Assembly (NCBI GenBank): GCA_017938725.1
Contig: JAGBAW010000026.1
Location: 9,014 to 73,013, forward strand
DNA length: 64,000 nt
Reading direction: 5' to 3'
Source: Bacilli bacterium
GTDB lineage: Bacteria; Bacillota_I; Bacilli_A; RF39; UBA660
A program made the position numbers and the translations under genes. Positions 49,899 to 64,000 of the stretch are shown here, piece after piece. Positions within the stretch are counted from its first letter, which is position 1. Each line of letters begins with the position of its first letter. Under the pieces are notes generated by a model. It saw nothing but the letters and a program-made list of their open reading frames with translations, made no database searches and was not told the DNA's origin.

Positions 49899-52800
49899 AT
49901 GAATAAGATAAAAGAATTTATTTTAAAATATAAAATTATTTTATTAATAGTTTTATTAGTAATAGCCTCTTTTGGTATATACTTCTTTGCTTCTGCGGAA
50001 GAGGATATATATGCGAATCAAATAGAGGTTACTAATGCTATTAGTAAAATAGTAGATGGCACGCCAAATGAAGATGGTAGTTTTGACCCTAATGATGATG
50101 CAGGTAATGATTCATCAAATAGTAATAAGATAGTTAGAAATTTTGATTCAATTACCTATGATGTATCATATAATCTCAGGTATAAAGAAAGTACTAACTT
50201 GAGCGCAGAAGATCAAAAATTGGATAACATTAGAAATGCTATAATTGATGTACTACTTCCTACATCTATAAGTGCAAATGTTTCTTATGGTGGGAATTCT
50301 GATATAAATCAGGGCCCAAGTAGTGCTAAAGAGGTTACTATAAATGGTATTAATTATAATTATTATATGTTTGAAATTAATGGTATAGATATCTCCTCAC
50401 CAAGGACAAGTAGTATTGTAGTATCAAATATTAATTCAAAAAATAATACTAAAATAGAACCTATTATAAGAGTAAGGGAAAGTACAGATCAATCAGCTGT
50501 TGCAATAGATAATAATACGGATATAAATAATATATCAAAATTAAATGTTGAACCTGTTATTGTATCTGCCAAAGAAAATTATGGCATTAAATTATATCCA
50601 GGGGTTCTAAAAAAGGATTATGATAACGCTACTATTCCTGTTGGTGTTGTTATTTATTTACCAAAGGATCCAAACAAGGGAATTAGAGGAATCGAGGTTC
50701 CAAGTAGTGTAGAATTTAATATGACTATAAATGATACAACAAATAGTTCTTCTATTATCGGTACTCCTACAATTAGTAATTACGATAGTAGCTTATATAC
50801 AATAGATGGACTTCCATCAGCTGATGCTACTAATAATGGTAATGCTGGAATTATAGTAAATGGCAATACATTCACATTAAACTTTACGGAATTAAAGTTC
50901 AGCAATAATGCTGTTTCAATAAATGATGTTGATGTTAACTATTTATCATCAAAGATGGTGCTATTTAATGTTCAAAGGACAACACCAAAAGCAAATATAA
51001 CCTATTCAATAGGTGCAACAAATGGTGTAATAACAAGTAATAATATAGAAATGAATTATAATTATGATCCTTATATTGGTGATTATAAAACAAAAGTTGA
51101 GTTTGTTAATAAAAATGGCTCAATACCAAATCCAGGGGAGGCAACATATTACTTTAATGAAGAATTTGATATAAAAAATACAATTCAATATGGATTTAAT
51201 GGAACTTACTCAGGTGATAATCTTAATGGCTTTGTAAATTATTTAAAAATAGATGAAGATGCAATTGAACTATTAGAGTCTGATAATATTAGTGATGAAA
51301 CAAAGGATTATATAGTTAAGTTCTCTGGTACAGATAGTCCAACTAAGGATAACTATTCAGTTAAGTATGGTGTTGGAAAGTGGGATTCATCATATTTTGA
51401 AATTAGTGGTACATGCCATATATCAAGTAAAGAGGATTTAATGAATTATTATGGTAGTTCATGCGTAAATGATAAAAATATTGTATGGTATGATACTATC
51501 GAAGAAGCAAAGAAAAATGGAAGTATAATACTTATACAATTTGATTATTCTGGTGATTTTTCCGCAGGAACTAGTGCTACATTAACTTTTAAAGCAAGGG
51601 CAAAAAATAATAGTTCAAACGTGGGGAGCACATTTGCTGTAATATCAAAAGGTATTACTACTTGGAATGATAATACATATTATTTATCTGAAACGCCAAT
51701 GCCTTTACTTGATTCTAGTACAGGGGACACAAGTATGTACTACAAAAAGACAGAATATGATGCTAATCACAATATTATAGCGAACACTAATAATCCATCG
51801 GGTAGTTATGGTAATACATTACTAGTTTCTGCATTTAAAGTTGGTTTTGATAGTATTATTACTAAAAATAGTTATGATAGTGAAAAAAGTACAATATATT
51901 CTGGACTAGATGATCCAGTTGAAATAATTTTAACGCCTACACTTTCAACTTATGTGGGGAATAAGATCGAGTCTGTTTCTATAAATGTTGTTTTACCACA
52001 AGGATTAGAATTATATATTAAAAAGGGAGATAAGATTCCTACTATTGATAATGCTGCTCCATCATATAAGACTCTTATGTATAGTTTCACAAGTGATGAA
52101 ATTGCAAAAAATAATGGTAAAATACCAAATCTCATACTTCATGCATATATATCGGTAGGGACTCCTGATAATACAATAGCGGATATAACGGCCGCAATAG
52201 ATGCAGTGGTTAGTAATGGTGATAAAAAATATTCTTCAATTACGTCAATAGATAAAAGAACAATAGGTGCAAGATTAACTTTAAGAAATACAAATAAGAT
52301 TAATGCACTTGGCACAATTAATCAAACTTATATTGATAAAAATGGAGAATTTACATATAAAATGAGGGCATCAAATTTATCAAGTGATGCAGCAACATTA
52401 GAATTATTAAATATACTACCATATTCAGGTGATAGTATTGGGGATGGTTCCAAATTTTCTGGTACATTGTCAGTAGCAATACAAGATGTTTTACCTGAAG
52501 GATATAAGATATATTATACTAGTGATGCGGCAAAGACAATACTTAAAAATGAAATTGATTCATCAGAGATAAAATGGATTGAATGGTCTGATTATAATAC
52601 ATATCGTAAAGATATAACAGCAATAAAAATAGTGTCAACATCACAGATCGCCTCTGGAGGATATTTTGTAAATGATACTGGTTTAACATTAAAAATAAAA
52701 ACTGATGGGAACAAAGAAACTGATATTTATTATAATAATTTCTATATATTAGAAAGAAATGCAAAATTATGTGAAGATGGTTCATCAGATTTACAAACAC

Positions 52801-53861
52801 AGGGCGTAGAATGCGATCCAAATTTAAAAGGAACACTTATATACCCATCTAATACTTCAAATGTATCTGTTTATAATAGAACTATTTCAGGAAAAGTATT
52901 TGAAGATGAAGATTACAATGGATTATATGAAGATGAAAAAAAGCTAAGTAATCAAATAGTTGAACTATATAGGTTAAACAAAGAGGGAGAATTTGACCCT
53001 AATAATCCATTAGATGTAATTAGTGATGCAGATGAAAAAGTATCCAAATCAGATGTAACAACAGATAATAATGGGACATATTTATTTAATTCATTATCAT
53101 CGGGTAGTTATTATGTAAAAGTAACATTTGATTGTGACAAATATTCCGTTACAGATAAAAATAAAACAACAATAGATACCTTAGTTGATACTTCTTCAAT
53201 AGATTCAGACTTTATTGCTATACCTACTGAAAATTCTAATACATGTAGCGCAGTATCAAATATTATTACTTTAAATAATGATAATATAAATGCAAGAAAT
53301 ATTGATTTAGGCTTGAGAATAAAACAAAACTTCGATATAAAAATAAGTAAATATATTACAAACGTTACAATAAACTCTAATAGAGGGACACAATCAATTG
53401 ACTATGATAAGCAAACTAAGGTAAAAATTGACGTAAAAAATCTAAAAAATACGTCATTTAGGGTAACATATAATTTTGAAATAGAAAATACTAAGTATTT
53501 TCCTGGAACTATTGGTACTATAATGGAATCTATACCTGAGGGTATGACATTTGATCCTTCACTTTCAGAAAATGACGGATGGTATGAAACATCAAATGGT
53601 ACATTATATTATGAATATTTATCAAATACATTAATAATGCCTGGAGAAAAATATCATATAAAGATAGTATTAGATCTAGTAACAGATGAAGGTGGAGATT
53701 TTGTAAATATTGTATTGGCTGATGATTTAAGAGTAATGGGATCAGCATCAGATATTATTACTGATACAGAAATTGAAATACTTCCAGATGGAGAAACTGA
53801 AAACCCGGGTGAAGATTCAAATGGAGATACAAATGAAGATGAAGAAGGTGATTTTGAATGA
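49899..53861 (+). CDS. Giant membrane-anchored/secreted surface protein with an SdrD-B/CnaB-type domain
   Basis: N-terminal TM/signal. SGKVFEDEDYNG...NNGTYLFNSLSSGSYYVKV CnaB-like fold. Acidic C-terminus and no sorting signal. Its stop overlaps the next start (ATGA). Confidence 0.7.
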   Translation: MNKIKEFILKYKIILLIVLLVIASFGIYFFASAEEDIYANQIEVTNAISKIVDGTPNEDGSFDPNDDAGNDSSNSNKIVRNFDSITYDVSYNLRYKESTNLSAEDQKLDNIRNAIIDVLLPTSISANVSYGGNSDINQGPSSAKEVTINGINYNYYMFEINGIDISSPRTSSIVVSNINSKNNTKIEPIIRVRESTDQSAVAIDNNTDINNISKLNVEPVIVSAKENYGIKLYPGVLKKDYDNATIPVGVVIYLPKDPNKGIRGIEVPSSVEFNMTINDTTNSSSIIGTPTISNYDSSLYTIDGLPSADATNNGNAGIIVNGNTFTLNFTELKFSNNAVSINDVDVNYLSSKMVLFNVQRTTPKANITYSIGATNGVITSNNIEMNYNYDPYIGDYKTKVEFVNKNGSIPNPGEATYYFNEEFDIKNTIQYGFNGTYSGDNLNGFVNYLKIDEDAIELLESDNISDETKDYIVKFSGTDSPTKDNYSVKYGVGKWDSSYFEISGTCHISSKEDLMNYYGSSCVNDKNIVWYDTIEEAKKNGSIILIQFDYSGDFSAGTSATLTFKARAKNNSSNVGSTFAVISKGITTWNDNTYYLSETPMPLLDSSTGDTSMYYKKTEYDANHNIIANTNNPSGSYGNTLLVSAFKVGFDSIITKNSYDSEKSTIYSGLDDPVEIILTPTLSTYVGNKIESVSINVVLPQGLELYIKKGDKIPTIDNAAPSYKTLMYSFTSDEIAKNNGKIPNLILHAYISVGTPDNTIADITAAIDAVVSNGDKKYSSITSIDKRTIGARLTLRNTNKINALGTINQTYIDKNGEFTYKMRASNLSSDAATLELLNILPYSGDSIGDGSKFSGTLSVAIQDVLPEGYKIYYTSDAAKTILKNEIDSSEIKWIEWSDYNTYRKDITAIKIVSTSQIASGGYFVNDTGLTLKIKTDGNKETDIYYNNFYILERNAKLCEDGSSDLQTQGVECDPNLKGTLIYPSNTSNVSVYNRTISGKVFEDEDYNGLYEDEKKLSNQIVELYRLNKEGEFDPNNPLDVISDADEKVSKSDVTTDNNGTYLFNSLSSGSYYVKVTFDCDKYSVTDKNKTTIDTLVDTSSIDSDFIAIPTENSNTCSAVSNIITLNNDNINARNIDLGLRIKQNFDIKISKYITNVTINSNRGTQSIDYDKQTKVKIDVKNLKNTSFRVTYNFEIENTKYFPGTIGTIMESIPEGMTFDPSLSENDGWYETSNGTLYYEYLSNTLIMPGEKYHIKIVLDLVTDEGGDFVNIVLADDLRVMGSASDIITDTEIEILPDGETENPGEDSNGDTNEDEEGDFE

Positions 53862-56530
53862 AAATAAAAAAATTAAGTAAAATATTTATTATAATAACTT
53901 TCATTTTCCTTCTTCTACCTTTTAAAAATGTAGAAGCTGCAGATGCCACATATCATTATTATTGGCTTAAAACTGCAAATTATATAGACGAGAGCTATAT
54001 AGGAAAAAGTTATACCATTAATGGGGGAACCATTCATATAGAAAAAAATTTTTTGCTTCATGAAGTTAATCAAGGAAATAGTTGGTATCATGGATATTGT
54101 TTACATGCAGGGAAAGTTGTCTTGGGTAATCAACCATTAAAATTATATGAAGGTTTTACGCAATTAAAAAATTCTTCTAACAAGTTATTATCAAAGAGCC
54201 AGCAGATATTACTTAAAAATATAGTTGCTAGTGGATATCAAAATGGGAATAGAAAAGTAAATGGTAGTATACTTGATTCCAGTGCAAGGCATGATGTAGG
54301 TAGACAACAATATAGTTGTAAATCTAAAACCGTATGTGAAAAAATTATAGCCACACAACTATTAGTATGGGAAGCAATGGAAGGGGTAAGAACAAATTAT
54401 AACCCTGATAGTTTAAAAGAAAGTCATAAATCATATTATAACTTTGTAATAAATAATTCTGGAATATATAAACAATATAAGGCTATACTAGATGACGCTA
54501 AAAATTTAACTACCGATGGGAAAATACCTGCGGCATTTGGCAAAACATATACTTTACACTGGATTGATTCTTTAGGAAAATATTCATATTCCTCTTGGAA
54601 TAAAAGTAGTAATAAATATACTAGAGATAGTTTGCCTATAGGTAGTTATAGATATAAAACAGATACAAAGGGTAAAATTTCTCTTAGTATGAATGGAAAT
54701 AATCTTTATATTGATTCATCTGGAGCATTTACTAAAGCAGATAGTTACGATTTGAACTTTTATTTAACAAAGGGTAGTACATTGGATGTTAATAATGAAT
54801 TTAGGTGGTATAAATTTACCAGTGGGTCAGGCTATCAAGATATTTTAATGGGGGATCATAAAGTTGAATTTATGCAATCATTAAAAGTAAAAACAGAAAA
54901 AGGTAAATTTTACATAGCTAAATATTCAAATGATTCTGGCACTATAAAGAAATTAACAGGTGCAGAATTTGAAGTTTATAAATGTAAAAAGAAAGGTAGT
55001 TGTGATAAAAAATCTACTGGAAAAATAGATTTGGGAAGTAATTATTATGGATATTTAGAGATAAATAAGTCAGGTCTATATAGAGTAGTTGAGTCAAAAG
55101 CACCATCTGGATATAATAAAATAAGTGAAGTATATGTAAATTTAAAAATTACAGATGGTGGAAAGGTAGAAATTATATCTGTTGATAGGGGATTGAACTC
55201 TAATGAGAGTATTAAAATTACAAAGGGTGAATCAACAGGCCGTATATATTTATCTATATATAATACTAAGAAATCTTTAGAAATTAAAAAAATTGATGGT
55301 GTAACTGGAAATGCAATAAAAGGTGCAACATTCCAAATAAAAGATTCTAAAGGTAATATATTGAAATTTAATAGAACAAAAGAGGGATACTATGATTACT
55401 CAGCATCTGGCAAAATAGATAAAATAGTAGATAGTAATATGAGTTCATATCATATATCTTTATTACCTGTTGGTTCATATACATTAATAGAAACTGCAGT
55501 GCCTTCTCCATATGTATTGCCAGCTAAACAAACAGATAGAGAAACTTATTTTAAAGTTACTTCTACAAATAGTAATCCATATAGTTATTGTACTTTAAGC
55601 AGTCTTACTAGCAAAAGTTGTATAGGAAATACTAATAATGTTGCAATTAAAGTAAAAAATTATACAACAAAGGTAGTCGTAAATAAAACAGGTAACGAGG
55701 GTGCCAAGTTATCTGGTGTAAAATTTAAACTTTATGATAAATCAAAATCAAAAGAAATAATTTTAAGTTTAAATAATACTGGTTCATATAATTATGTTCA
55801 AAATCAAACAGGAACTACAATTGATTTAGTAACAAACGAAAATGGACAAATAATAATCAATAATTTACCTGAAGGGACATATTACTTAAAAGAAATAGAG
55901 GCAGCATTAGGATATGAAATAGATGAGTCAGTACAGTGGACAGAGATTAAAGTATCTATAAATACTAAATTAAGTAATATATCTCAAATAGGAAAAACAG
56001 AAGTACAAATATCAAATGCTAAAGGTACATTTAATTTCTATAAAATAGATGAAGATGGAAACTATTTAAATTCTGGTAAATTTAAATTACAAGTTTATAA
56101 TGATAATAATGGAAAATATGAAGATGCAGCAGTTAACTACGATAACGAAAAAAATGTATATTCAATTGATAAAACGGGCAAAAGTGATATTTACACATTT
56201 ACTCCAACAAATGGGGTTGTAACATTTGTTAATGTTGATAAAGCTGGTAAGTATAGAATTGTTGAAATTGAAGCACCTGAAGGATTTGTGTTACCATCAT
56301 CTAATGATGCATTTGTTGAATTTTCTGTAAATGGTAATGGCTATATAAATGGTGATTTAACAATGATTAATAAAAAAGTTACTAAAGGTGATGGGAAACA
56401 AGCACAAGCAGAACTTATTATAAATATTCAAACAGGTCAGCAAAGAATTCGATATTTTGTTATTATTGCAGTATTACTTGTAATAATTACAGCACTATTC
56501 ATACTAAAAAATAAATTTAATAAAAAATAG
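53858..56530 (+). CDS. Thioester-domain (TQXA-like) adhesin with four Cna-B/SpaA-type domains and a sortase-B-like sorting signal
   Basis: Signal peptide. Candidate thioester Cys in YHGYCLHAG, with ATQLLVWEA. Four GxxFxVY...G.Y.L.E...P.GY modules. C-terminal NIQTG, then a hydrophobic helix and a KNKFNKK tail. Confidence 0.75.
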   Translation: MKIKKLSKIFIIITFIFLLLPFKNVEAADATYHYYWLKTANYIDESYIGKSYTINGGTIHIEKNFLLHEVNQGNSWYHGYCLHAGKVVLGNQPLKLYEGFTQLKNSSNKLLSKSQQILLKNIVASGYQNGNRKVNGSILDSSARHDVGRQQYSCKSKTVCEKIIATQLLVWEAMEGVRTNYNPDSLKESHKSYYNFVINNSGIYKQYKAILDDAKNLTTDGKIPAAFGKTYTLHWIDSLGKYSYSSWNKSSNKYTRDSLPIGSYRYKTDTKGKISLSMNGNNLYIDSSGAFTKADSYDLNFYLTKGSTLDVNNEFRWYKFTSGSGYQDILMGDHKVEFMQSLKVKTEKGKFYIAKYSNDSGTIKKLTGAEFEVYKCKKKGSCDKKSTGKIDLGSNYYGYLEINKSGLYRVVESKAPSGYNKISEVYVNLKITDGGKVEIISVDRGLNSNESIKITKGESTGRIYLSIYNTKKSLEIKKIDGVTGNAIKGATFQIKDSKGNILKFNRTKEGYYDYSASGKIDKIVDSNMSSYHISLLPVGSYTLIETAVPSPYVLPAKQTDRETYFKVTSTNSNPYSYCTLSSLTSKSCIGNTNNVAIKVKNYTTKVVVNKTGNEGAKLSGVKFKLYDKSKSKEIILSLNNTGSYNYVQNQTGTTIDLVTNENGQIIINNLPEGTYYLKEIEAALGYEIDESVQWTEIKVSINTKLSNISQIGKTEVQISNAKGTFNFYKIDEDGNYLNSGKFKLQVYNDNNGKYEDAAVNYDNEKNVYSIDKTGKSDIYTFTPTNGVVTFVNVDKAGKYRIVEIEAPEGFVLPSSNDAFVEFSVNGNGYINGDLTMINKKVTKGDGKQAQAELIINIQTGQQRIRYFVIIAVLLVIITALFILKNKFNKK

Positions 56531-59269: not shown

Positions 59270-60610
59270 TTACTTTGAAAGTGTGGTGCCTGGATAATAA
59301 TGAGATAATATACTTTGGTAGTTATATCCAGCATTTGCCATGCCATTCGCACCATATTGACTCATACCAACACCATGACCATATCCTCTTGTTGTAATAC
59401 TTGCAGTACTATCATTAATTGAAATATCAAAATCTGCACTTCTTAAACCTAATGTTTCTCTTACTTGTTTCCCAGTAAAAGTATAACCAGCAATTGTTAT
59501 TTCTTTAATATTATTTCCGTCTGTATAATTAATAACCTCAATAATTGAATCAGATGATAAATTAATGCCAAGTTTAGATGAGATTGTATTTAAATCCATT
59601 GTTGTTGTCCTTAAATAACTTGATGCAAATTTATCATAATCGGATGTAACACTAACTAAATAAGGATAATAATTACCAAATACATCAAGTGATGATTCCG
59701 TCTTACCATTATTGGTAGAATGATATAAAGCTTCAATATAATTTCCATTATATGCTAGATATTGTCCTTTTGTATATTCCACAGCATTTTTTATTTTATT
59801 ATAATAAGTATTATAAGATGATCCCCACTTACTTTGCATCTGCCCAGCATCAATATAAGCTTGCGTACTAACTGTGTCGGTTAGGGTCTTACCAGTACTT
59901 TTTGCTTTTAACGCATAAGTTCTTGCTAGAATACTTTGAGCTTTCAAGGCCTCCGAATTAAAGGAAGCAGGCATTTCAGCAGCAACTACACCTATTACGT
60001 ATTCTTCTAAATCAATTGTAATAACAGAACCATTACTTCTATGAATAGTAACAGTAGTTCCTGAAATTATTTGATTTGATTGCATACTTGAACTACCTGA
60101 CGTAATTGTACTGTTATTACTTGTAGAAACTTGAGTATTATTGGTTTTAGTTGAACTATTATTTGGTTGTGATTGATTTGAAATAGTAATTTTTTGCGAA
60201 CTTTGATTATTAATTTTAGTTTTTACATTATTAGTACTAGTTGTACTATTAGATTCTTGGCTTTTATTTTCACTTACATTTTCGTTTGAGTTTCCAATTT
60301 GTATTTTATTTTCTTCAGTTTTATTATCTTCCTTAGCAATATACGTTATAGTATTTTTAAAATTTGGAACATATGTAATATTTTCTTTTGTTATACCACT
60401 ATTTATATTAGTAAGTATTATACTTCCAATAATAACTCCACTACAAGTAAGAACTATTTTTCCTTTTTTTAAATCAATTTTCATTTTATTTATATAATCT
60501 TTTATTTCATCAACAATTTTTTTACCTTTTTTAAAAGAACCTCCAAATTCATAATTAACATCTATTTCTAAATATAATATATCATCTTTAATAATATGGC
60601 ATCTAAACAT
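59270..60610 (-). CDS. SpoIID/LytB domain protein
   Basis: N-terminal TM, an S/T/N-rich linker, and a C-terminal SpoIID domain (YHSTNNGKTE, GHGVGMSQYGA). Confidence 0.75.
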   Translation of the reverse strand: MFRCHIIKDDILYLEIDVNYEFGGSFKKGKKIVDEIKDYINKMKIDLKKGKIVLTCSGVIIGSIILTNINSGITKENITYVPNFKNTITYIAKEDNKTEENKIQIGNSNENVSENKSQESNSTTSTNNVKTKINNQSSQKITISNQSQPNNSSTKTNNTQVSTSNNSTITSGSSSMQSNQIISGTTVTIHRSNGSVITIDLEEYVIGVVAAEMPASFNSEALKAQSILARTYALKAKSTGKTLTDTVSTQAYIDAGQMQSKWGSSYNTYYNKIKNAVEYTKGQYLAYNGNYIEALYHSTNNGKTESSLDVFGNYYPYLVSVTSDYDKFASSYLRTTTMDLNTISSKLGINLSSDSIIEVINYTDGNNIKEITIAGYTFTGKQVRETLGLRSADFDISINDSTASITTRGYGHGVGMSQYGANGMANAGYNYQSILSHYYPGTTLSK

Positions 60611-60710
60611 ATAATCACCATTATTAATGTGAACAATTTTTTGTAAAATAAACTTTAAATACTTGTTATTTAAATTATAATATGGTATATTATTAGAGTA
60701 AAAATTTTAT

Positions 60711-60787
60711 GGCGGAATTGGTGAAGTGGTTAACACGGCAGATTGTGGCTCTGTTATGCAAGGGTTCGACTCCCTTATTTCGCCCCA
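60711..60787 (+). tRNA. tRNA-His (anticodon GUG)
   Basis: Hand-folded. G-1 and 7-bp acceptor GCGGAAT/ATTTCGC, discriminator C. D-arm GGTG..CAC. Anticodon stem GCAGA/TCTGT with loop TTGTGGC (GTG). T-arm AAGGG-TTCGACT-CCCTT. Encoded CCA. Confidence 0.85.
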
Positions 60788-60886
60788 TCGATTGAATTTT
60801 ACGCACACCTTTGTGCTAAGATAAAGTAAAAGTTCGTAATACTTGATATTATGGACTTTTTTCTTTGCAAAGGTGGTGAGTTTATA

Positions 60887-61183
60887 ATGAGAATCGTGTC
60901 CATAGAAATTTTAGAATTTCCTTTGTGTATAAAAAGTAAGATATTAAGAATTAAAAATATTACCAAACTAAATATAGAATATATTGCAGGTAAGAATATT
61001 GTATTTAATAACTCTAATTTAGGATTAAAGGAACCACATAAGATTATCATTAGTAATAATACTCAAGGTATCGTTTTACTTTGTTATGATGATGACACTA
61101 ATTTATATGATGAAAATTTATCTAGGACTATTACGATAACTGAATTAACCAACATAGTTGAATACTTATTAAAAGAAAATTAA
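60887..61183 (+). CDS. Hypothetical protein, first ORF of the tRNA-His island
   Basis: About 99 aa from ATG 60887; the track gives 60851. No family recognised. Confidence 0.3.
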   Translation: MRIVSIEILEFPLCIKSKILRIKNITKLNIEYIAGKNIVFNNSNLGLKEPHKIIISNNTQGIVLLCYDDDTNLYDENLSRTITITELTNIVEYLLKEN

Positions 61184-61382
61184 AAAAATTTTAAAATTTA
61201 TTTTTTCCTTTATTTATAAGGGATAAATAGCCGTTTTAAGGGGTGCCTTTCAAACTATTACAAATAATTCCTAACAAAAAAGAATCAAGATTAGATAAAG
61301 AAAGTTTAACATTACTATCAATAAATGCCTAAAATATGATAAAATATATATGTATATATCGGTAACTTTGGAGGTTATAAAT

Positions 61383-62204
61383 ATGAATGAATTATATTCA
61401 ATATGTTGGAATATTACCAATAAATGTAATGAAAATTGTAAATTCTGTTATAGAAAAATATGTGATGATAACTCGTTAGAGGAAAATAAAAAAATATTTG
61501 ATAATATATCTAAGATAAAGATTGATAAAATAACTTTTTCTGGTGGAGAACCATTATTATATGAAGATTTATTTAAATTAGGTGATTATATAAAAAGTAA
61601 GAATCCTGAAATTAAATTATCTTTAACTACTAATGGTCAAATGATAAATGATGACCTATTTAATAAGATAATAAACACATTTGATTGGATTTCGTTTTCT
61701 ATTGATAGTTCAAATACTAATGTTAATGATGAAATTGGTAGAGGTAAAAATCATCTTGAAAAGATAGTAAGTTTATTAGATAAATTTAATAATAAAATAA
61801 AACTAAAGATTAATACAGTTGCTAATAAATACAATATTGATGATTTAGAAAATATTTATAATATAATTTCAAAATATCATATTAGCAGATGGAAGATTTT
61901 TAGGTTCTATCCATTAAGAAAAGGAAAAGAAAATGAAAAGTTATTTTATTTAAATGATTCAGAGTCGCAATTAGTCGAAGACTATGTAACAAGTAAACAA
62001 AAGCATGATTCAAAAATAAAAATTCATTATAATAATTTAAATGAATTTACTACATCATACTTTAACATTTATCCAGATGGTAGTATTGAAAATAGTAAGG
62101 ATGAAGATATCGGAAATTTATTATATGATGATATTTTAAACATTTTAAAAATAAAGAAAAATGACTTAATTAATCATAATTTAAGAAAAAACAATGAATT
62201 ATAA
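61383..62204 (+). CDS. Prokaryotic viperin-like radical SAM enzyme (pVip candidate)
   Basis: TNKCNENCKFCY vs viperin TRQCNYKCGFCF. KITFSGGEPLL vs KINFSGGEPFL. ISFSIDSSNTNVNDEIGRGKNH vs [30 protein letters not shown] vs KINSVIN. RWKIF vs RWKVF. No SPASM cysteines. GGAGGT ribosome-binding site. Confidence 0.65.
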   Translation: MNELYSICWNITNKCNENCKFCYRKICDDNSLEENKKIFDNISKIKIDKITFSGGEPLLYEDLFKLGDYIKSKNPEIKLSLTTNGQMINDDLFNKIINTFDWISFSIDSSNTNVNDEIGRGKNHLEKIVSLLDKFNNKIKLKINTVANKYNIDDLENIYNIISKYHISRWKIFRFYPLRKGKENEKLFYLNDSESQLVEDYVTSKQKHDSKIKIHYNNLNEFTTSYFNIYPDGSIENSKDEDIGNLLYDDILNILKIKKNDLINHNLRKNNEL

Positions 62205-62226
62205 AAAATTCTGTTGTATTAATTTT

Positions 62227-62249
62227 GAGCAAGAGATTGCTCTTTTTTT
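62227..62249 (+). terminator. Rho-independent terminator immediately after the pVip gene
   Basis: gagcaa-gaga-ttgctc plus T7. Confidence 0.6.
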
Positions 62250-62265
62250 GTTGTTTAAATTTAGA

Positions 62266-62463
62266 AAGGAGATGAGTTTTATTAATTATTTCTTTGAAAT
62301 AGTCGTACCACAATTATTAGAGTATTTTAAAGAAAATGCAAAGGATGTTCCTTATTCTTTATTATCAGAAGTATTAATCAATAATAAGAACTATGAAAAA
62401 GAAGTAAAAGAAATGATTGAAAAATCTAATGAAATTAGTAAAAAATATATTAAAAAAAATTAA
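62266..62463 (+). CDS. Doubtful small ORF
   Basis: 65 aa if started at ATG 62266; the track's 89-aa form spans the terminator hairpin. Possibly not a real gene. Confidence 0.2.
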   Translation, partial: KEMSFINYFFEIVVPQLLEYFKENAKDVPYSLLSEVLINNKNYEKEVKEMIEKSNEISKKYIKKN

Positions 62464-62489
62464 ACTGTCAGCGACTACATTAGTGGGTC

Positions 62490-62529
62490 TTAGGGATATT
62501 CCCTAACAAGTAGATGGGTGTGTATACAC
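62490..62529 (+). promoter_or_regulatory. Two perfect palindromes (TTAGGGA-TAT-TCCCTAA and GTGTATACAC) upstream of ORF 62597
   Basis: Read directly at 62490-62506 and 62520-62529. Operator-like. Confidence 0.3.
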
Positions 62530-62596
62530 CATGCTTGATAGATTGAATTTTTATATTACGTAAGTCGTTCTCTAATTTATGAAAGGATAAATTTTT

Positions 62597-63151
62597 ATGA
62601 ATGATGAGTGGATAGAAAGAAAGCAAGTTCAAGATATGTTTTCATTAACAACCAAACAATTTGGAAGAGTTATGAGAAATATAAAGCGAAGACACGAACA
62701 TGATTATTATTTATGGATAAAAAGAGATAAGAATAGTAAATCAAAAATGTATATAAGTCAAGAATGTGTTGATTGGTTAAAAGAAGTTTATTTTAACAAA
62801 GAAGAACATTACTTAACTTCTGAAATCAGGTTTTATAAAAAGAAGATTTTTGATTTAGAAAATGAATTAGGAATAAGTCATAAAAGAAATAAATATGAAT
62901 CTTTTTCATTAAGATTTTTACCTTACTTATATGGTAAAAGTGTAAGTGCTATTCATGTAGCACTTCATAGGATGAAAAAGGTATTTCCTTATTCAATAAC
63001 TTTTGAAGATGATGGTGTTATATGTGTTAAAGAAGAGGGAATTAGATGGTTGTATGAAAATTATTTTAAAAGAGATTATTTAAAAGAATTAGAAGAATAT
63101 AAATGGGAATTAGAAATTAGAAAAAATAATGTGAAGGTCAAGACACACTAA
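62597..63151 (+). CDS. Phage-like putative DNA-binding protein with an internal duplication
   Basis: Basic HTH-like N-terminus (SLTTKQFGRVMRNIKRRH). Duplicated CV.E...WL.E.YF segments. Confidence 0.4.
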   Translation: MNDEWIERKQVQDMFSLTTKQFGRVMRNIKRRHEHDYYLWIKRDKNSKSKMYISQECVDWLKEVYFNKEEHYLTSEIRFYKKKIFDLENELGISHKRNKYESFSLRFLPYLYGKSVSAIHVALHRMKKVFPYSITFEDDGVICVKEEGIRWLYENYFKRDYLKELEEYKWELEIRKNNVKVKTH

Positions 63152-63205
63152 AGTTTATTTGGTATAATATTTATAGTTAAAACTTAATGAAATGAGGTGT
63201 TATTG

Positions 63206-64000
63206 TGAATATTGAGATTATACAAAAAGCATTGTTAGACTGTTACTCAAAAGATTTATGTTATCCTAAAGTTCAAGATGATTGGAATGACAATAATAAA
63301 TGCTTTGGTATGTGTGCAATAACATCTCTAATCATTAATGATTATTTTGGTGGAGAGATTTGTAAAATTCATGTGGATGAAATTAGTCATTATTTTAATT
63401 TAGTAGAAGATAAAATTATAGATTTAACTTCAAGTCAGTTTAATCATGATATAGATTATAAAGATTATCAAATTATAGATAGACAAAAAATATTAACTGA
63501 TGATACTAGGAATAGATATAACATATTAAAGGCAAGATTAATAAAAGCATTATTAAAACAGGTTGATGAAAAAGTATATTCTTGTAAATCATGCAATAAA
63601 TTAGTTGATAAGTTTCCTAATGATGCTACAGTATATCTAGGTAAAGATCAGACAATCATTTTTGTTGGAGAAGCCCCTGCTAATAATGGTTGGAGAAAAA
63701 GTCATAAATTATGGTGTGATATAAATGGTAAAGTTTTACCTAGTGGAGTTGTATTACAAAAATTATTTGATATTATAGATAGAAATATTTTTGAAACTAC
63801 ATTTTTAGAGTCAGTTAAGTGCTATCCATTAGAAAGAAAAAATTTAAAAACTTGTTCTAGTAATTGTAAGAATATAATGTTAGAACAACTAAAAATATTA
63901 AATCCTAAATTAATTATTACTTTAGGAGAATTTCCAACTAGAAATTTACTTAATTTTAAATTCAATAAATTTGCTGATGTAGTTGGCAACATATATGAAG
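63206..64000 (+). CDS. Fusion of a YunG-like Cys-rich domain with a UDG-superfamily (family-4-like) domain; 3' end outside the window
   Basis: N-terminus CFGMCAITSLIINDYFGGEI (YunG-like). C-terminus IIFVGEAPANNGWRKS, SGVVLQKLFD, VKCYPLE, then LIITLGE. This parallels UDG family 4's GEAPG, GRAGQLL, VKCRPP and ALG motifs. GTG start after a GAGGTG ribosome-binding site. Confidence 0.45.

What the first reader, a model, noticed from the sequence alone, without database searches (positions are those of the whole stretch)
61383..62204. Prokaryotic viperin homolog (pVip)
The protein tracks human viperin block by block:
- the CxxxCxxC context TNKCNENCKFCY,
- FSGGEP,
- TNG,
- DSSNTNVNDEIGRGKNH,
- KINTVAN,
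- the viperin-specific RWKIF.

It has no SPASM or twitch cysteines, so it is not a RiPP maturase. The gene is monocistronic, with a promoter-like TTACTA-N17-TATGAT upstream and a clean terminator downstream.
Basis: partly seen in the sequence, partly recalled or inferred. Interest (0 to 1): 0.7.

Follow-up and report, generated by a model that had tools for sequence, protein, structure and literature searches.

The report
Divergent viperin-like radical SAM defence gene
This gene encodes an enzyme clearly related to the antiviral protein viperin and sits in a mobile defence island next to a tRNA gene, but it belongs to a separate sister branch that lacks two hallmark viperin motifs, so its antiviral product may not be the usual one.

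Summary

**For a viperin relative**
- Its best matches are viperin models, not MoaA, NrdG or QueE.
- A confident AlphaFold model superposes best on mouse viperin bound to CTP.

**Against a canonical pVip**
- It scores 158.6 bits on NCBIfam's viperin equivalog (cut-off 180). Canonical pVips score 235-262.
- The S-x-N-[WY]-H motif is replaced by S-I-C-W-N.
- The C-terminal RGGxYxW phosphate clamp is missing. A 2026 preprint reports this clamp to be essential for ddhNTP synthesis.
- The canonical clade separates in 99 of 100 neighbour-joining bootstraps, and the query lies outside it.

**Retained:** the Cys triad, GGEP, the basic residues K49, K142, R169 and K171, Tyr226, and probably the nucleobase-contacting Asn.

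**Context:** a variable island beside tRNA-His. Relatives carry a serine recombinase, often a Mob_Pre relaxase, and candidate defence genes. Several also have phosphohydrolase neighbours.

**Verdict:** a viperin-like, probably antiviral, nucleotide-modifying enzyme. It is a new variant of a known kind, and its product is unproven.

The parts
60712..60787 (+). tRNA-His (GTG). It marks the left border of the variable island that carries the gene.
   Evidence: ARAGORN finds it. Homology between this locus and the related island L004 begins exactly at the tRNA-His in both. A degenerate copy of the tRNA 3' end (TTATTGCCCCA) lies about 5.2 kb downstream, outside the window at L001 14559. The same repeat closes the L004 island.
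60887..61183 (+). Small conserved ORF (98 aa, unknown function), first gene of the island.
   Evidence: It is conserved at 84% DNA identity in L004, where it precedes a serine recombinase. It has no Pfam, PADLOC or PHROG match.
61312..61340 (+). Promoter-like TTACTA-N17-TATGAT. Unproven.
   Evidence: The sequence is present. Promoter-like sites are not enriched over shuffles. Indirect support: the 127 bp upstream of the gene travels with it as one conserved block, L001 9874-10809 matching L004 7872-8809 at 89.6%.
61370..61374 (+). Ribosome-binding site, GGAGG.
   Evidence: Read directly from the sequence, 8 nt before the ATG at 61383.
61383..62204 (+). Viperin-like radical SAM enzyme, 273 aa ('CWNIT' sister clade of canonical viperins).
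   Evidence: Key residues are C15/C19/C22 (cluster), G54-G55-E56 (SAM), K49, K142, R169 and K171 (basic residues invariant in viperins), Y226, N237 and C8 (a family-specific, invariant Cys).
62227..62252 (+). Intrinsic-terminator-like hairpin followed by a T-run.
   Evidence: It is the only such site in 60600-63300 (1 found, 0.2 expected). The stem is weak. In L004 an SDR and an MBL gene lie between the radical SAM stop and this downstream block.
62272..62463 (+). Small ORF of 63 aa (listed as 89 aa from 62194), conserved island gene of unknown function.
   Evidence: An AGGAG site precedes the ATG at 62272, after the terminator. A homologous 75-aa ORF occupies the same position in L004. It matches no family.
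62597..63151 (+). 184-aa conserved island gene of unknown function.
   Evidence: A homologue of 187 aa is present in L004. It has no Pfam, PADLOC or PHROG match.
63205..64000 (+). YunG-UDG fusion protein (298 aa in full), cut by the end of the window.
   Evidence: Pfam gives YunG 6e-32 and UDG 2.6e-12 on the full gene from L001. It is conserved in the L004 island.

Best explanation
The gene encodes a stand-alone viperin-like radical SAM enzyme. It belongs to a large sister clade of the canonical viperins, recognisable by S-x-C-W-[ND]-I-T before the CxxxCxxC triad. It is one cargo gene of a variable, horizontally moving island inserted beside tRNA-His.

**Shown.** It has the radical SAM core (Cys triad, GGE), a viperin-type closed barrel, and the basic residues, Tyr and probably the Asn that are invariant or typical in viperins.

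**Inferred.** The [4Fe-4S] cluster cleaves SAM to a 5'-deoxyadenosyl radical. The radical abstracts a ribose hydrogen from a bound ribonucleotide, and the enzyme releases a modified nucleotide. The product is most likely a 3'-deoxy-3',4'-didehydro-type chain terminator or a close analogue that poisons phage RNA synthesis.

The clade lacks the N-x-H motif and the C-terminal Arg/Tyr phosphate clamp of proven viperins. The exact substrate (phosphorylation state) and product may therefore differ.
For: **Homology and fold**
- Viperin HMMs are by far the best hits.
- The PDB sequence search returns only viperins at 1e-19 to 5e-22, followed by a 12-log gap.
- hhalign of the query clade against canonical pVips gives probability 100%, E 8.6e-60, over 265 aligned columns reaching the C-terminus.
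- The AF2 model has pLDDT 95 and pTM 0.91.
- Its best structural match is mouse viperin with CTP (6Q2P), TM 0.82-0.84 over about 290 columns.

**Conserved residues**
- Of 48 columns at least 90% conserved in canonical viperins, 27 are shared by the query clade. These include K49, K142, N144, R169, W170, K171, R120 and Y226.
- K49, K142 and K171 are invariant within the clade and R169 is nearly so.
- An Asn (N237) sits in the beta-8 loop at or beside the position of the nucleobase-contacting Asn of prokaryotic viperins.

**Context**
- The same island holds PDC-M41A (5e-83) with a DUF5131-like radical SAM partner.
- Related islands carry a KAP NTPase or a PAPS-reductase/DUF4007/BrxC-PglY-type gene cluster that looks like a phosphorothioation or BREX-type system.
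- Homologues sit directly downstream of a serine recombinase, with or without a Mob_Pre relaxase, next to tRNA genes in 5 of about 8 independent contexts.

**Nucleotide link**
- Neighbours in relatives are MBL, HD/HD_3, a Phosphodiest-family enzyme and Nudix proteins.
- A more distant viperin-like gene on an E. coli plasmid is in an operon with a deoxynucleoside kinase and NudI.
Against: - The score is below NCBIfam's curated cut-off (158.6 against 180). There is a clean gap to canonical pVips on two independent HMM sets.
- The query lies outside the canonical clade (99/100 NJ bootstrap).
- The His that is invariant in the canonical sequences analysed is Asn here. The preceding Asn is Cys.
- The RGGxYxW tail is missing. 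Only an Arg (R268) aligns with the clamp Arg, and it is not conserved among homologues below about 60% identity.
- A 2026 preprint reports that replacing the clamp Arg and Tyr with Ala abolishes all ddhNTP formation in the human and a fungal enzyme.
- No nucleotide kinase is adjacent.
- Some deeper relatives lie in contexts that do not look defensive.
- No biochemical or phage-challenge data exist for any member of this clade, as far as the searchable literature shows.
Confidence: 0.55

Rival explanations
1. It is a canonical prokaryotic viperin (pVip). It converts CTP, UTP or GTP to ddhNTP exactly as the characterised pVips do, and the sequence differences are neutral drift in an AT-rich genome.
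For: PADLOC's pVip model matches at 1.4e-48 over 89% of the profile, so automated tools would probably call it pVip. The viperin fold and the basic residues, Tyr and Asn are kept. A natural fungal viperin-like enzyme with Phe at the His position still crystallised with CTP and SAM (PDB 9DFN; 9DFU is its F40H variant). Loss of the His alone is therefore not disqualifying.
Against: Scores are bimodal: 227-265 bits for canonical sequences against no more than 175 for every member of this clade tested. The canonical clade separates at 99/100 with the query outside. The Arg/Tyr clamp reported as essential is absent. The family-specific invariant Cys8-Trp9 points to a constrained difference, not drift.
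Confidence: 0.2
2. The scaffold is the same but the chemistry differs. The enzyme acts on a nucleotide with a different phosphate tail or a nucleotide derivative, or it quenches the substrate radical differently, for example through the invariant Cys8 thiol. The result would be a product other than ddhNTP. In relatives that product may be processed further by the adjacent phosphohydrolase or SDR.
For: The gamma-phosphate clamp is missing and the C-terminal tail varies within the clade. The substitutions N-to-C and H-to-N sit in the active-site strand, and Cys8 is invariant. Recurrent neighbours are phosphohydrolases (MBL, HD_3, HD, Phosphodiest, Nudix) or an SDR, not kinases.
Against: The window copy has no such partner and looks self-sufficient. 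The partner genes are heterogeneous. No direct evidence for any alternative substrate exists. The roles proposed for Cys8 and the SDR are inference from other radical SAM systems, on my own knowledge.
Confidence: 0.2
3. It is not an immune gene. It would be a metabolic or element-benefit radical SAM enzyme (cofactor or nucleotide salvage, or a counter-defence function of the mobile element) that merely shares ancestry with viperin.
For: Some relatives at 41-45% identity sit among housekeeping-like genes: NrdD/NrdG, a Mur ligase, PRPP synthetase, U32 peptidase and ATP-grasp. The neighbouring MBL proteins hit the Anti-Pycsar Apyc1 Pfam family, which is a phage counter-defence fold.
Against: Close homologues (above 60% identity) are patchily distributed at different chromosomal sites, next to recombinase or relaxase modules and candidate defence genes. 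There is no close homologue in phage genomes or viral structure sets. The Apyc1 hit overlaps generic Lactamase_B hits.
Confidence: 0.08
4. It is a MoaA, NrdG or QueE-type enzyme, or a RiPP maturase.
For: It shows generic radical SAM similarity to MoaA (68-70 bits) and NirJ or SPASM maturases (60-88 bits). SkfB and SuiB appear in the fold search at TM 0.77 normalised to the query.
Against: All of these score far below their cut-offs and below the viperin models. There are no Cys beyond residue 27, hence no auxiliary cluster. The SkfB and SuiB matches cover only half of those larger proteins (TMt about 0.5). No precursor peptide, PqqD or molybdopterin genes are nearby.
Confidence: 0.02

Closest known systems
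Canonical prokaryotic viperins (pVips; NCBIfam NF038283 'viperin family antiviral radical SAM protein'; Bernheim et al. 2021)
   Same: They share a single-domain radical SAM enzyme of about 270-300 aa and the CxxxCxxC, GGEP, TNG, SxDS, GRGxNH, KxNT and RWKxF motifs plus the SY tyrosine. Both have the viperin closed-barrel fold and occur as stand-alone genes in defence islands. hhalign gives E 8.6e-60.
   Different: Identity is about 28-30%. The score is below the curated cut-off. The query lies outside the canonical clade (99/100). N-[WY]-H is replaced by C-W-N. KINF becomes KIT/SF. There is no RGGxYxW tail and no kinase partner. The invariant Cys8 is specific to this clade.
Eukaryotic viperin / RSAD2 (mouse 6Q2P; fungal 6B4C, 7N7I, 9DFN)
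   Same: These are the best structural matches (TM 0.77-0.84) and the best PDB sequence matches. The basic residues equivalent to mouse K120, K220, R245 and K247, and Tyr302, are kept (numbering from my own knowledge; conservation).
   Different: Identity is 22-27%. There is no N-terminal amphipathic helix. The C-terminal P-loop or clamp and the terminal Trp are absent. Canonical bacterial pVips are much closer to the eukaryotic enzymes (170-204 bits end to end) than this protein is (72-82 bits, aligning to about residues 195-208).
Ophion OpnA (radical SAM of a three-gene anti-jumbo-phage system; bioRxiv 10.1101/2025.09.30.679545)
   Same: [quoted passage not shown]
   Different: Ophion is a three-gene system (radical SAM, PHP and PRTase) in Gammaproteobacteria. 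Here the gene stands alone in gut Bacilli. Direct sequence relatedness to OpnA was not tested.
MoaA (GTP 3',8-cyclase), the usual outgroup of viperin
   Same: It shares the radical SAM core and acts on a nucleoside triphosphate.
   Different: It scores only 68-70 bits against cut-offs of 284-325 and 8e-4 in the PDB search. This protein has no C-terminal auxiliary-cluster cysteines.

Membership tests
Radical SAM superfamily | CxxxCxxC cluster motif, GGE SAM-binding motif and a partial TIM-barrel core | tested here: met
   C15/C19/C22 and G54-G55-E56 are present. Pfam PF04055 scores 88.1 bits against a cut-off of 29.5. The AF2 model has alternating beta/alpha elements at pLDDT 95.
Viperin / pVip | Best profile match is viperin, not MoaA, NirJ, NrdG or QueE | tested here: met
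   NF038283 scores 158.6 bits against 88 for the next model. PADLOC pVip gives 1.4e-48. The top nine PDB hits are all viperins.
Viperin / pVip | Score at or above the curated equivalog cut-off (NF038283, 180 bits) | tested here: not met
   The query scores 158.6. Seven other clade members score 110-170. Three canonical pVips score 235-262. PADLOC shows the same gap.
Viperin / pVip | Phylogenetic placement inside the clade that holds experimentally validated bacterial, archaeal and eukaryotic viperins | tested here: not met
   In an NJ tree of 146 sequences the canonical bipartition, which includes fungal PDB viperins, has 99/100 bootstrap support. The query is deep in the other part. Limits: the method was NJ only, the outgroup was not monophyletic, and the Bernheim clade references were not available.
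Viperin / pVip | Viperin fold with a C-terminal extension that closes the barrel | tested here: met
   Foldseek's top hits are 6Q2P, 6Q2Q and 7N7H, with TM 0.82-0.84 over about 290 columns.
Viperin / pVip | Basic residues that bind the triphosphate (mouse K120, K220, R245, K247; roles from my own knowledge of 6Q2P) | tested here: met
   K49, K142, R169 and K171 align to columns that are 100% conserved in canonical sequences. They are 98-100% conserved in the query clade.
Viperin / pVip | C-terminal Arg/Tyr clamp (RGGxY, P-loop) on the terminal phosphate, reported essential for all ddhNTP formation | tested here: not met
   The motif is present in every canonical sequence and absent from every member of the query clade. 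Only R268 aligns with the Arg, which is 49% conserved in the clade. The Tyr column holds Glu or a gap. Essentiality is reported in bioRxiv 10.64898/2026.09.10.750538.
Viperin / pVip | N-[WY]-H motif in strand beta-1 before the Cys triad | tested here: not met
   His is 100% conserved in the 12 canonical sequences analysed (one of them, 9DFU, is the engineered F40H variant of a natural Phe enzyme, 9DFN). The query has C8-W9-N10. What the His does could not be verified from the literature held.
Viperin / pVip | Active-site tyrosine (mouse Tyr302, SY motif) and a beta-8 loop Asn that contacts the nucleobase | tested here: inconclusive
   Y226 is conserved (95% of the clade). N237 lies within one or two alignment columns of the canonical Asn, and gap placement is ambiguous. 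The Asn's role is taken from Shomar et al.. No coordinates were available to check the geometry.
Viperin / pVip | Location in defence islands or on mobile elements, with patchy distribution | tested here: met
   PDC-M41A lies in the same island. Relatives carry a KAP NTPase or a PAPS-reductase/DUF4007/BrxC-type cluster. Recombinase or relaxase modules and flanking tRNA genes recur. Only 5 loci were found in 185,579 species genomes.
Viperin / pVip | Produces ddhNTP and protects against phage | not testable with these tools
   This needs LC-MS and plaque assays.
SPASM/twitch RiPP maturases | C-terminal auxiliary Fe-S cluster cysteines and an adjacent precursor peptide or RRE | tested here: not met
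   There is no Cys after residue 27. Scores are 40-72 bits against cut-offs of 340-725. There are no PqqD or peptide genes nearby.

The most novel reading that the evidence does not exclude
The 'CW[ND]IT' proteins form a distinct, uncharacterised branch of viperin-like enzymes. They bind their nucleotide without the canonical gamma-phosphate clamp and carry an invariant active-site-strand Cys in place of Asn-x-His. They would make an antiviral nucleotide analogue different from ddhNTP, or use a substrate that is not a triphosphate. They spread through gut Bacillota as single-gene cargo of tRNA-linked integrative mobilisable elements built on a serine recombinase and a Mob_Pre relaxase. They are often paired with phosphohydrolases instead of kinases.
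Probability: 0.25. Interest if true: 0.7.

Novelty: new variant of a known kind. Interest (0 to 1): 0.45.

Why it matters
Viperins are the best example of an antiviral mechanism shared from bacteria to humans, and their products are natural chain-terminating nucleotides of pharmacological interest.

A large, unstudied sister clade keeps the nucleotide-binding core but has lost the clamp reported to be essential. It has also swapped the N-x-H motif for an invariant Cys. That clade could widen the chemistry of natural antiviral nucleotides. Alternatively, it could show that ddhNTP synthesis tolerates far more active-site variation than is now thought.

There is a practical point too. Permissive tools such as the PADLOC HMMs would probably label these genes pVip, while NCBI's curated model does not. 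Counts of 'viperins' in gut metagenomes therefore depend on an untested assumption.

The link to tRNA-flanked recombinase and relaxase elements suggests how such single-gene defences move between uncultured gut Bacilli.

Tried and rejected
**Rejected hypotheses**
- MoaA, NrdG, QueE or NirJ identity: rejected on profile scores.
- RiPP maturase: rejected. There are no auxiliary Cys and no peptide or RRE genes. The similar-looking 'radical SAM protein' hits on Clostridium and Bacillus plasmids are larger proteins (380-424 aa) in unrelated clusters with PqqD, peptidases and a second radical SAM gene.
- Phage origin: only one weak hit among 50,697 phage records (29.5% identity). The viral structure set gave only generic radical SAM matches.

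**Weak or unsupported evidence**
- Promoter: not above chance.
- The 89-aa ORF overlapping the stop codon as a translationally coupled partner: unlikely, because the terminator-like hairpin lies inside it. An AGGAG-preceded ATG at 62272 gives a 63-aa ORF that matches the 75-aa gene in L004.

**Things that did not work**
- Rooting the tree with five multidomain radical SAM proteins failed, because the outgroup was not monophyletic. I claim only the unrooted statement that the query is not inside the canonical clade.
- The viperin structure papers (Fenwick 2017 and 2020, Lachowicz 2021, Bernheim 2021, Rivera-Serrano 2020) are not held. Residue roles for mouse K120, K220, R245, K247, Y302, N77 and H79 therefore rest on my own knowledge.
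- The afdb50 fold library was unavailable.
- The genome-contig scan with a single sequence returned only 5 close loci.
- Model coordinates are not exposed, so the pocket could not be superposed on 6Q2P.
Full report
**1. The observation**

The ORF runs from an ATG at 61383 to a TAA stop at 62202-62204 on the + strand and encodes 273 aa. A GGAGG site lies 8 nt upstream of the start. Close homologues begin at the same MNELYS.

The only cysteines are C8, C15, C19, C22 and C27, so there is no SPASM or twitch cluster. Pfam gives Radical_SAM at 1e-24.

The quoted promoter, TTACTA-N17-TATGAT at 61312-61340, exists. Promoter-like matches in this AT-rich region are no commoner than in shuffles (27 against 24.0 +/- 4.7). 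The downstream hairpin with a T-run at 62227-62249 is the only terminator-like site in 2.7 kb (1 against 0.2 expected). It is weak.

**2. It is a viperin relative**

- NCBIfam's best model is NF038283, 'viperin family antiviral radical SAM protein', at 158.6 bits. The next is NirJ2 at 88. MoaA scores 68-70 and NrdG 44.
- PADLOC's pVip model gives 1.4e-48.
- Against all PDB sequences the top nine hits are viperins or viperin-like enzymes at 5e-22 to 5.5e-19. A gap to 2e-7 follows, and MoaA is at 8e-4.
- An AlphaFold2 model built on a 53-sequence alignment is confident (pLDDT 95.0, pTM 0.91).
- Its best structural matches are mouse viperin bound to CTP or UTP and the Nematostella and Trichoderma enzymes, with TM 0.77-0.84 over about 290 columns. 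SkfB and SuiB follow, but they cover only half of those larger proteins.

**3. It is not a canonical pVip**

The score of 158.6 is below NF038283's curated cut-off of 180. The homology searches also returned true canonical pVips as remote hits at 27-34% identity: P0113, P0115, P0116, P0119, P0237 and P0251-P0253.

| Test | Canonical pVips | Query and its clade |
|---|---|---|
| NF038283 (cut-off 180) | 235-262 bits | 110-170 bits (seven clade members); query 158.6 |
| PADLOC pVip models | 227-265 bits | no more than 175 bits; query 163.6 |
| Match to eukaryotic PDB viperins | 170-204 bits, end to end | 72-82 bits, aligning to about residues 195-208 |

All canonical sequences carry S-x-N-[WY]-H-x-T before the Cys triad and end in RGGxYxW. 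The query and its whole clade carry S-I-C-W-N-I-T and have no such tail.

I compared columns at least 90% conserved in 12 canonical sequences, which included two fungal PDB enzymes (one of them, 9DFU, an engineered F40H variant). Of 48 such columns, 27 are shared by the query clade and 21 are not.
- **Shared:** C15, N16, C19, F21, C22, K49, GGEP, S80, T83, N84, D101, D108, R120, K142, N144, T145, N151, R169, W170, K171, F173 and Y226.
- **Lost:** the His (Asn here), a Pro before RWK, the G-[EQ]-N loop after it, a Glu and a Met before the SY motif, and the G, Y and W of the tail.

A neighbour-joining tree of 141 sequences puts the canonical sequences, fungal enzymes included, in one clade. The query lies deep inside a large 'CW[ND]IT' radiation. 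With five extra outgroup domains (146 sequences), the canonical bipartition has 99/100 bootstrap support. Rooting failed, so I claim only that the query is not inside the canonical clade.

The radiation is large. The representative library holds 68 clusters at E up to 1e-30 and 2564 at E up to 1e-10.

**4. What the differences may mean**

A 2026 preprint (bioRxiv 10.64898/2026.09.10.750538) describes a highly conserved Arg and Tyr in the C-terminal tail, the RGGxY motif. They hydrogen-bond the terminal phosphate of the NTP. Replacing them with Ala abolished formation of all ddhNTPs in human viperin and in a fungal enzyme.

In the query only R268 aligns with that Arg. The Tyr position is Glu or lies beyond the C-terminus. 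The tail (NHNLRKN) already changes to NNxSKK or NYN in homologues of 55-60% identity.

The role of the His could not be checked in the literature held. PDB titles show that a natural second viperin-like enzyme of Trichoderma virens has Phe there and still binds CTP and SAM (9DFN). Its F40H variant was also made (9DFU). The position is evidently of mechanistic interest, but its loss does not prevent nucleotide binding.

In favour of a nucleotide substrate:
- The four basic residues that I know as triphosphate ligands in mouse viperin (K120, K220, R245, K247) correspond to K49, K142, R169 and K171. These are invariant or nearly so in the clade.
- The Tyr of the SY motif is kept.
- An Asn (N237) lies at or next to the beta-8 loop position where Shomar et al. 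place the nucleobase-contacting Asn of most prokaryotic viperins.

Cys8 and Trp9 are invariant in the clade. That argues for a constrained functional difference and against drift.

**5. Genomic context**

The same protein sequence occurs on a 53-kb metagenomic scaffold, L001, which extends the window by about 8 kb. Related genomes are uncultured gut Bacilli and Erysipelotrichaceae MAGs from human and mouse samples.

A tRNA-His at window 60712-60787 is exactly where homology to a related locus, L004, begins. L004 carries a radical SAM protein 87% identical to the query.

| Locus | Gene order |
|---|---|
| Window / L001 | tRNA-His, 98-aa ORF, radical SAM, 63-aa ORF, 184-aa ORF, YunG-UDG fusion, PDC-M41A (5e-83), DUF5131-like radical SAM, degenerate copy of the tRNA 3' end (TTATTGCCCCA) |
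| L004 | tRNA-His, 97-aa ORF, serine recombinase, radical SAM, SDR, MBL hydrolase, 75-aa ORF, 187-aa ORF, YunG-UDG fusion, KAP NTPase, the same repeat |

The radical SAM gene with 127 bp of upstream DNA is one conserved block (89.6% identity). The window copy lacks the recombinase and the SDR and MBL genes.

In four other loci (L002, L009, L010, L011) the homologue sits directly downstream of a serine recombinase plus a Mob_Pre relaxase. In L002 and L009 a tRNA gene lies just upstream of that module. This is the layout of an integrative mobilisable element. Another relative lies beside a PAPS-reductase/DUF4007/BrxC-PglY-type cluster that resembles a phosphorothioation or BREX-type system.

Immediate neighbours in relatives are often phosphohydrolases:
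- MBL in L002, L003 and L004
- HD_3 in L010
- HD in L020
- a Phosphodiest-family enzyme plus Nudix in L016

A methyltransferase appears in L011, and several loci have no such partner. A more distant viperin-like gene on an E. coli plasmid forms an operon with a deoxynucleoside kinase and NudI.

There is no close relative in phage genomes, plasmids or viral structure predictions. On plasmids, PGAP names the canonical relatives 'viperin family antiviral radical SAM protein' and the others simply 'radical SAM protein'. The nearest named clade member, P0089, is likewise just 'radical SAM protein'.

**6. Interpretation**

The gene most likely encodes a stand-alone, nucleotide-modifying radical SAM enzyme with an antiviral role, carried as one cargo of a tRNA-His-linked variable island.
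- **Shown:** radical SAM motifs, viperin fold, conserved basic, Tyr and Asn residues, and a mobile or defence context.
- **Inferred:** SAM cleavage, hydrogen abstraction from a ribonucleotide, release of a chain-terminating analogue, and phage inhibition.

The clade fails three membership tests for canonical viperins: the curated cut-off, clade placement, and the clamp and N-x-H motifs. I therefore do not file it as a pVip. I describe it as a new variant of the viperin kind. It probably works like a viperin (confidence 0.55). There is a real chance (about 0.2-0.25) that its substrate or product differs.

**7. Literature**

Full-text searches found no paper describing this clade. [quoted passage not shown] Viperin surveys separate in-group from out-group by trees rooted on MoaA and by HMM cut-offs. 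A sister clade such as this one could fall on either side of those thresholds.

**8. Verdict**

Interest is moderate at 0.45. Automated tools would probably already flag the gene as pVip. The specific losses, the invariant Cys and the element architecture make a cheap, decisive experiment worthwhile.

Noticed in passing
window 60712-60787; L001 14559-14569 and L004 14768-14778: tRNA-His marks the left edge of the island. A degenerate copy of the tRNA's 3' half, ending TTATTGCCCCA, lies 5.2 kb (L001) or 9.2 kb (L004) downstream, like an attL/attR pair. A second, partial copy of the about 70-bp right-end sequence lies at L001 15306-15373, which suggests tandem islands.
   Followed up: partly
window 63205-64000 (cut); full gene at L001 11823-12719: A 298-aa fusion of a YunG domain (6e-32) with a uracil-DNA-glycosylase superfamily domain (2.6e-12). 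It is conserved in the related island L004 next to a KAP NTPase. It matches no PADLOC model and may be an uncharacterised island or defence gene.
   Followed up: partly
L001 12822-14469 (just beyond the window end): A two-gene candidate defence system: PDC-M41A (5e-83) followed by a 263-aa radical SAM/DUF5131-like protein (weak PDC-M41B hit; phrog_13321 at 4.8e-20). The island therefore carries two unrelated radical SAM genes.
   Followed up: partly
L002 3456-7103; L009 4346-7939; L010 353-3904; L011 85-3663: A large serine recombinase plus a Mob_Pre relaxase sits immediately upstream of the radical SAM homologue. In L002 and L009 a tRNA gene (Leu, Arg) lies just upstream of that module. This looks like a family of small integrative mobilisable elements whose cargo includes the viperin-like gene.
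   Followed up: partly
L014 4968-6978 (E. coli plasmid NZ_CP027324.1): An operon of a more distant viperin-like radical SAM protein (289 aa, AWR in place of RWK), a deoxynucleoside kinase and the Nudix enzyme NudI, beside an IS600 element on an IncK2/Z conjugative plasmid. PGAP annotates the first gene only as 'radical SAM protein'.
   Followed up: no
window 62597-63151: A 184-aa protein with no family match. It appears to contain two similar segments (…ECVDWLKEVYF… and …EGIRWLYENYF…). It is conserved in L004 between the small ORF and the YunG-UDG gene.
   Followed up: no
L001 15563-16192 (outside the window): A small RelA_SpoT-domain protein (209 aa, 1.2e-31) that also matches the PADLOC candidate PDC-S33 (1e-21). 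It lies just after the second copy of the island-end repeat.
   Followed up: no
window 49899-56530: Two very large adjacent ORFs of 1320 aa and 890 aa. Precomputed Pfam hits are SdrD_B (faint) and SpaA. They are probably cell-surface adhesin or pilin-like proteins upstream of the housekeeping genes for a D-Ala-D-Ala carboxypeptidase, a pseudouridine synthase and SpoIID.
   Followed up: no
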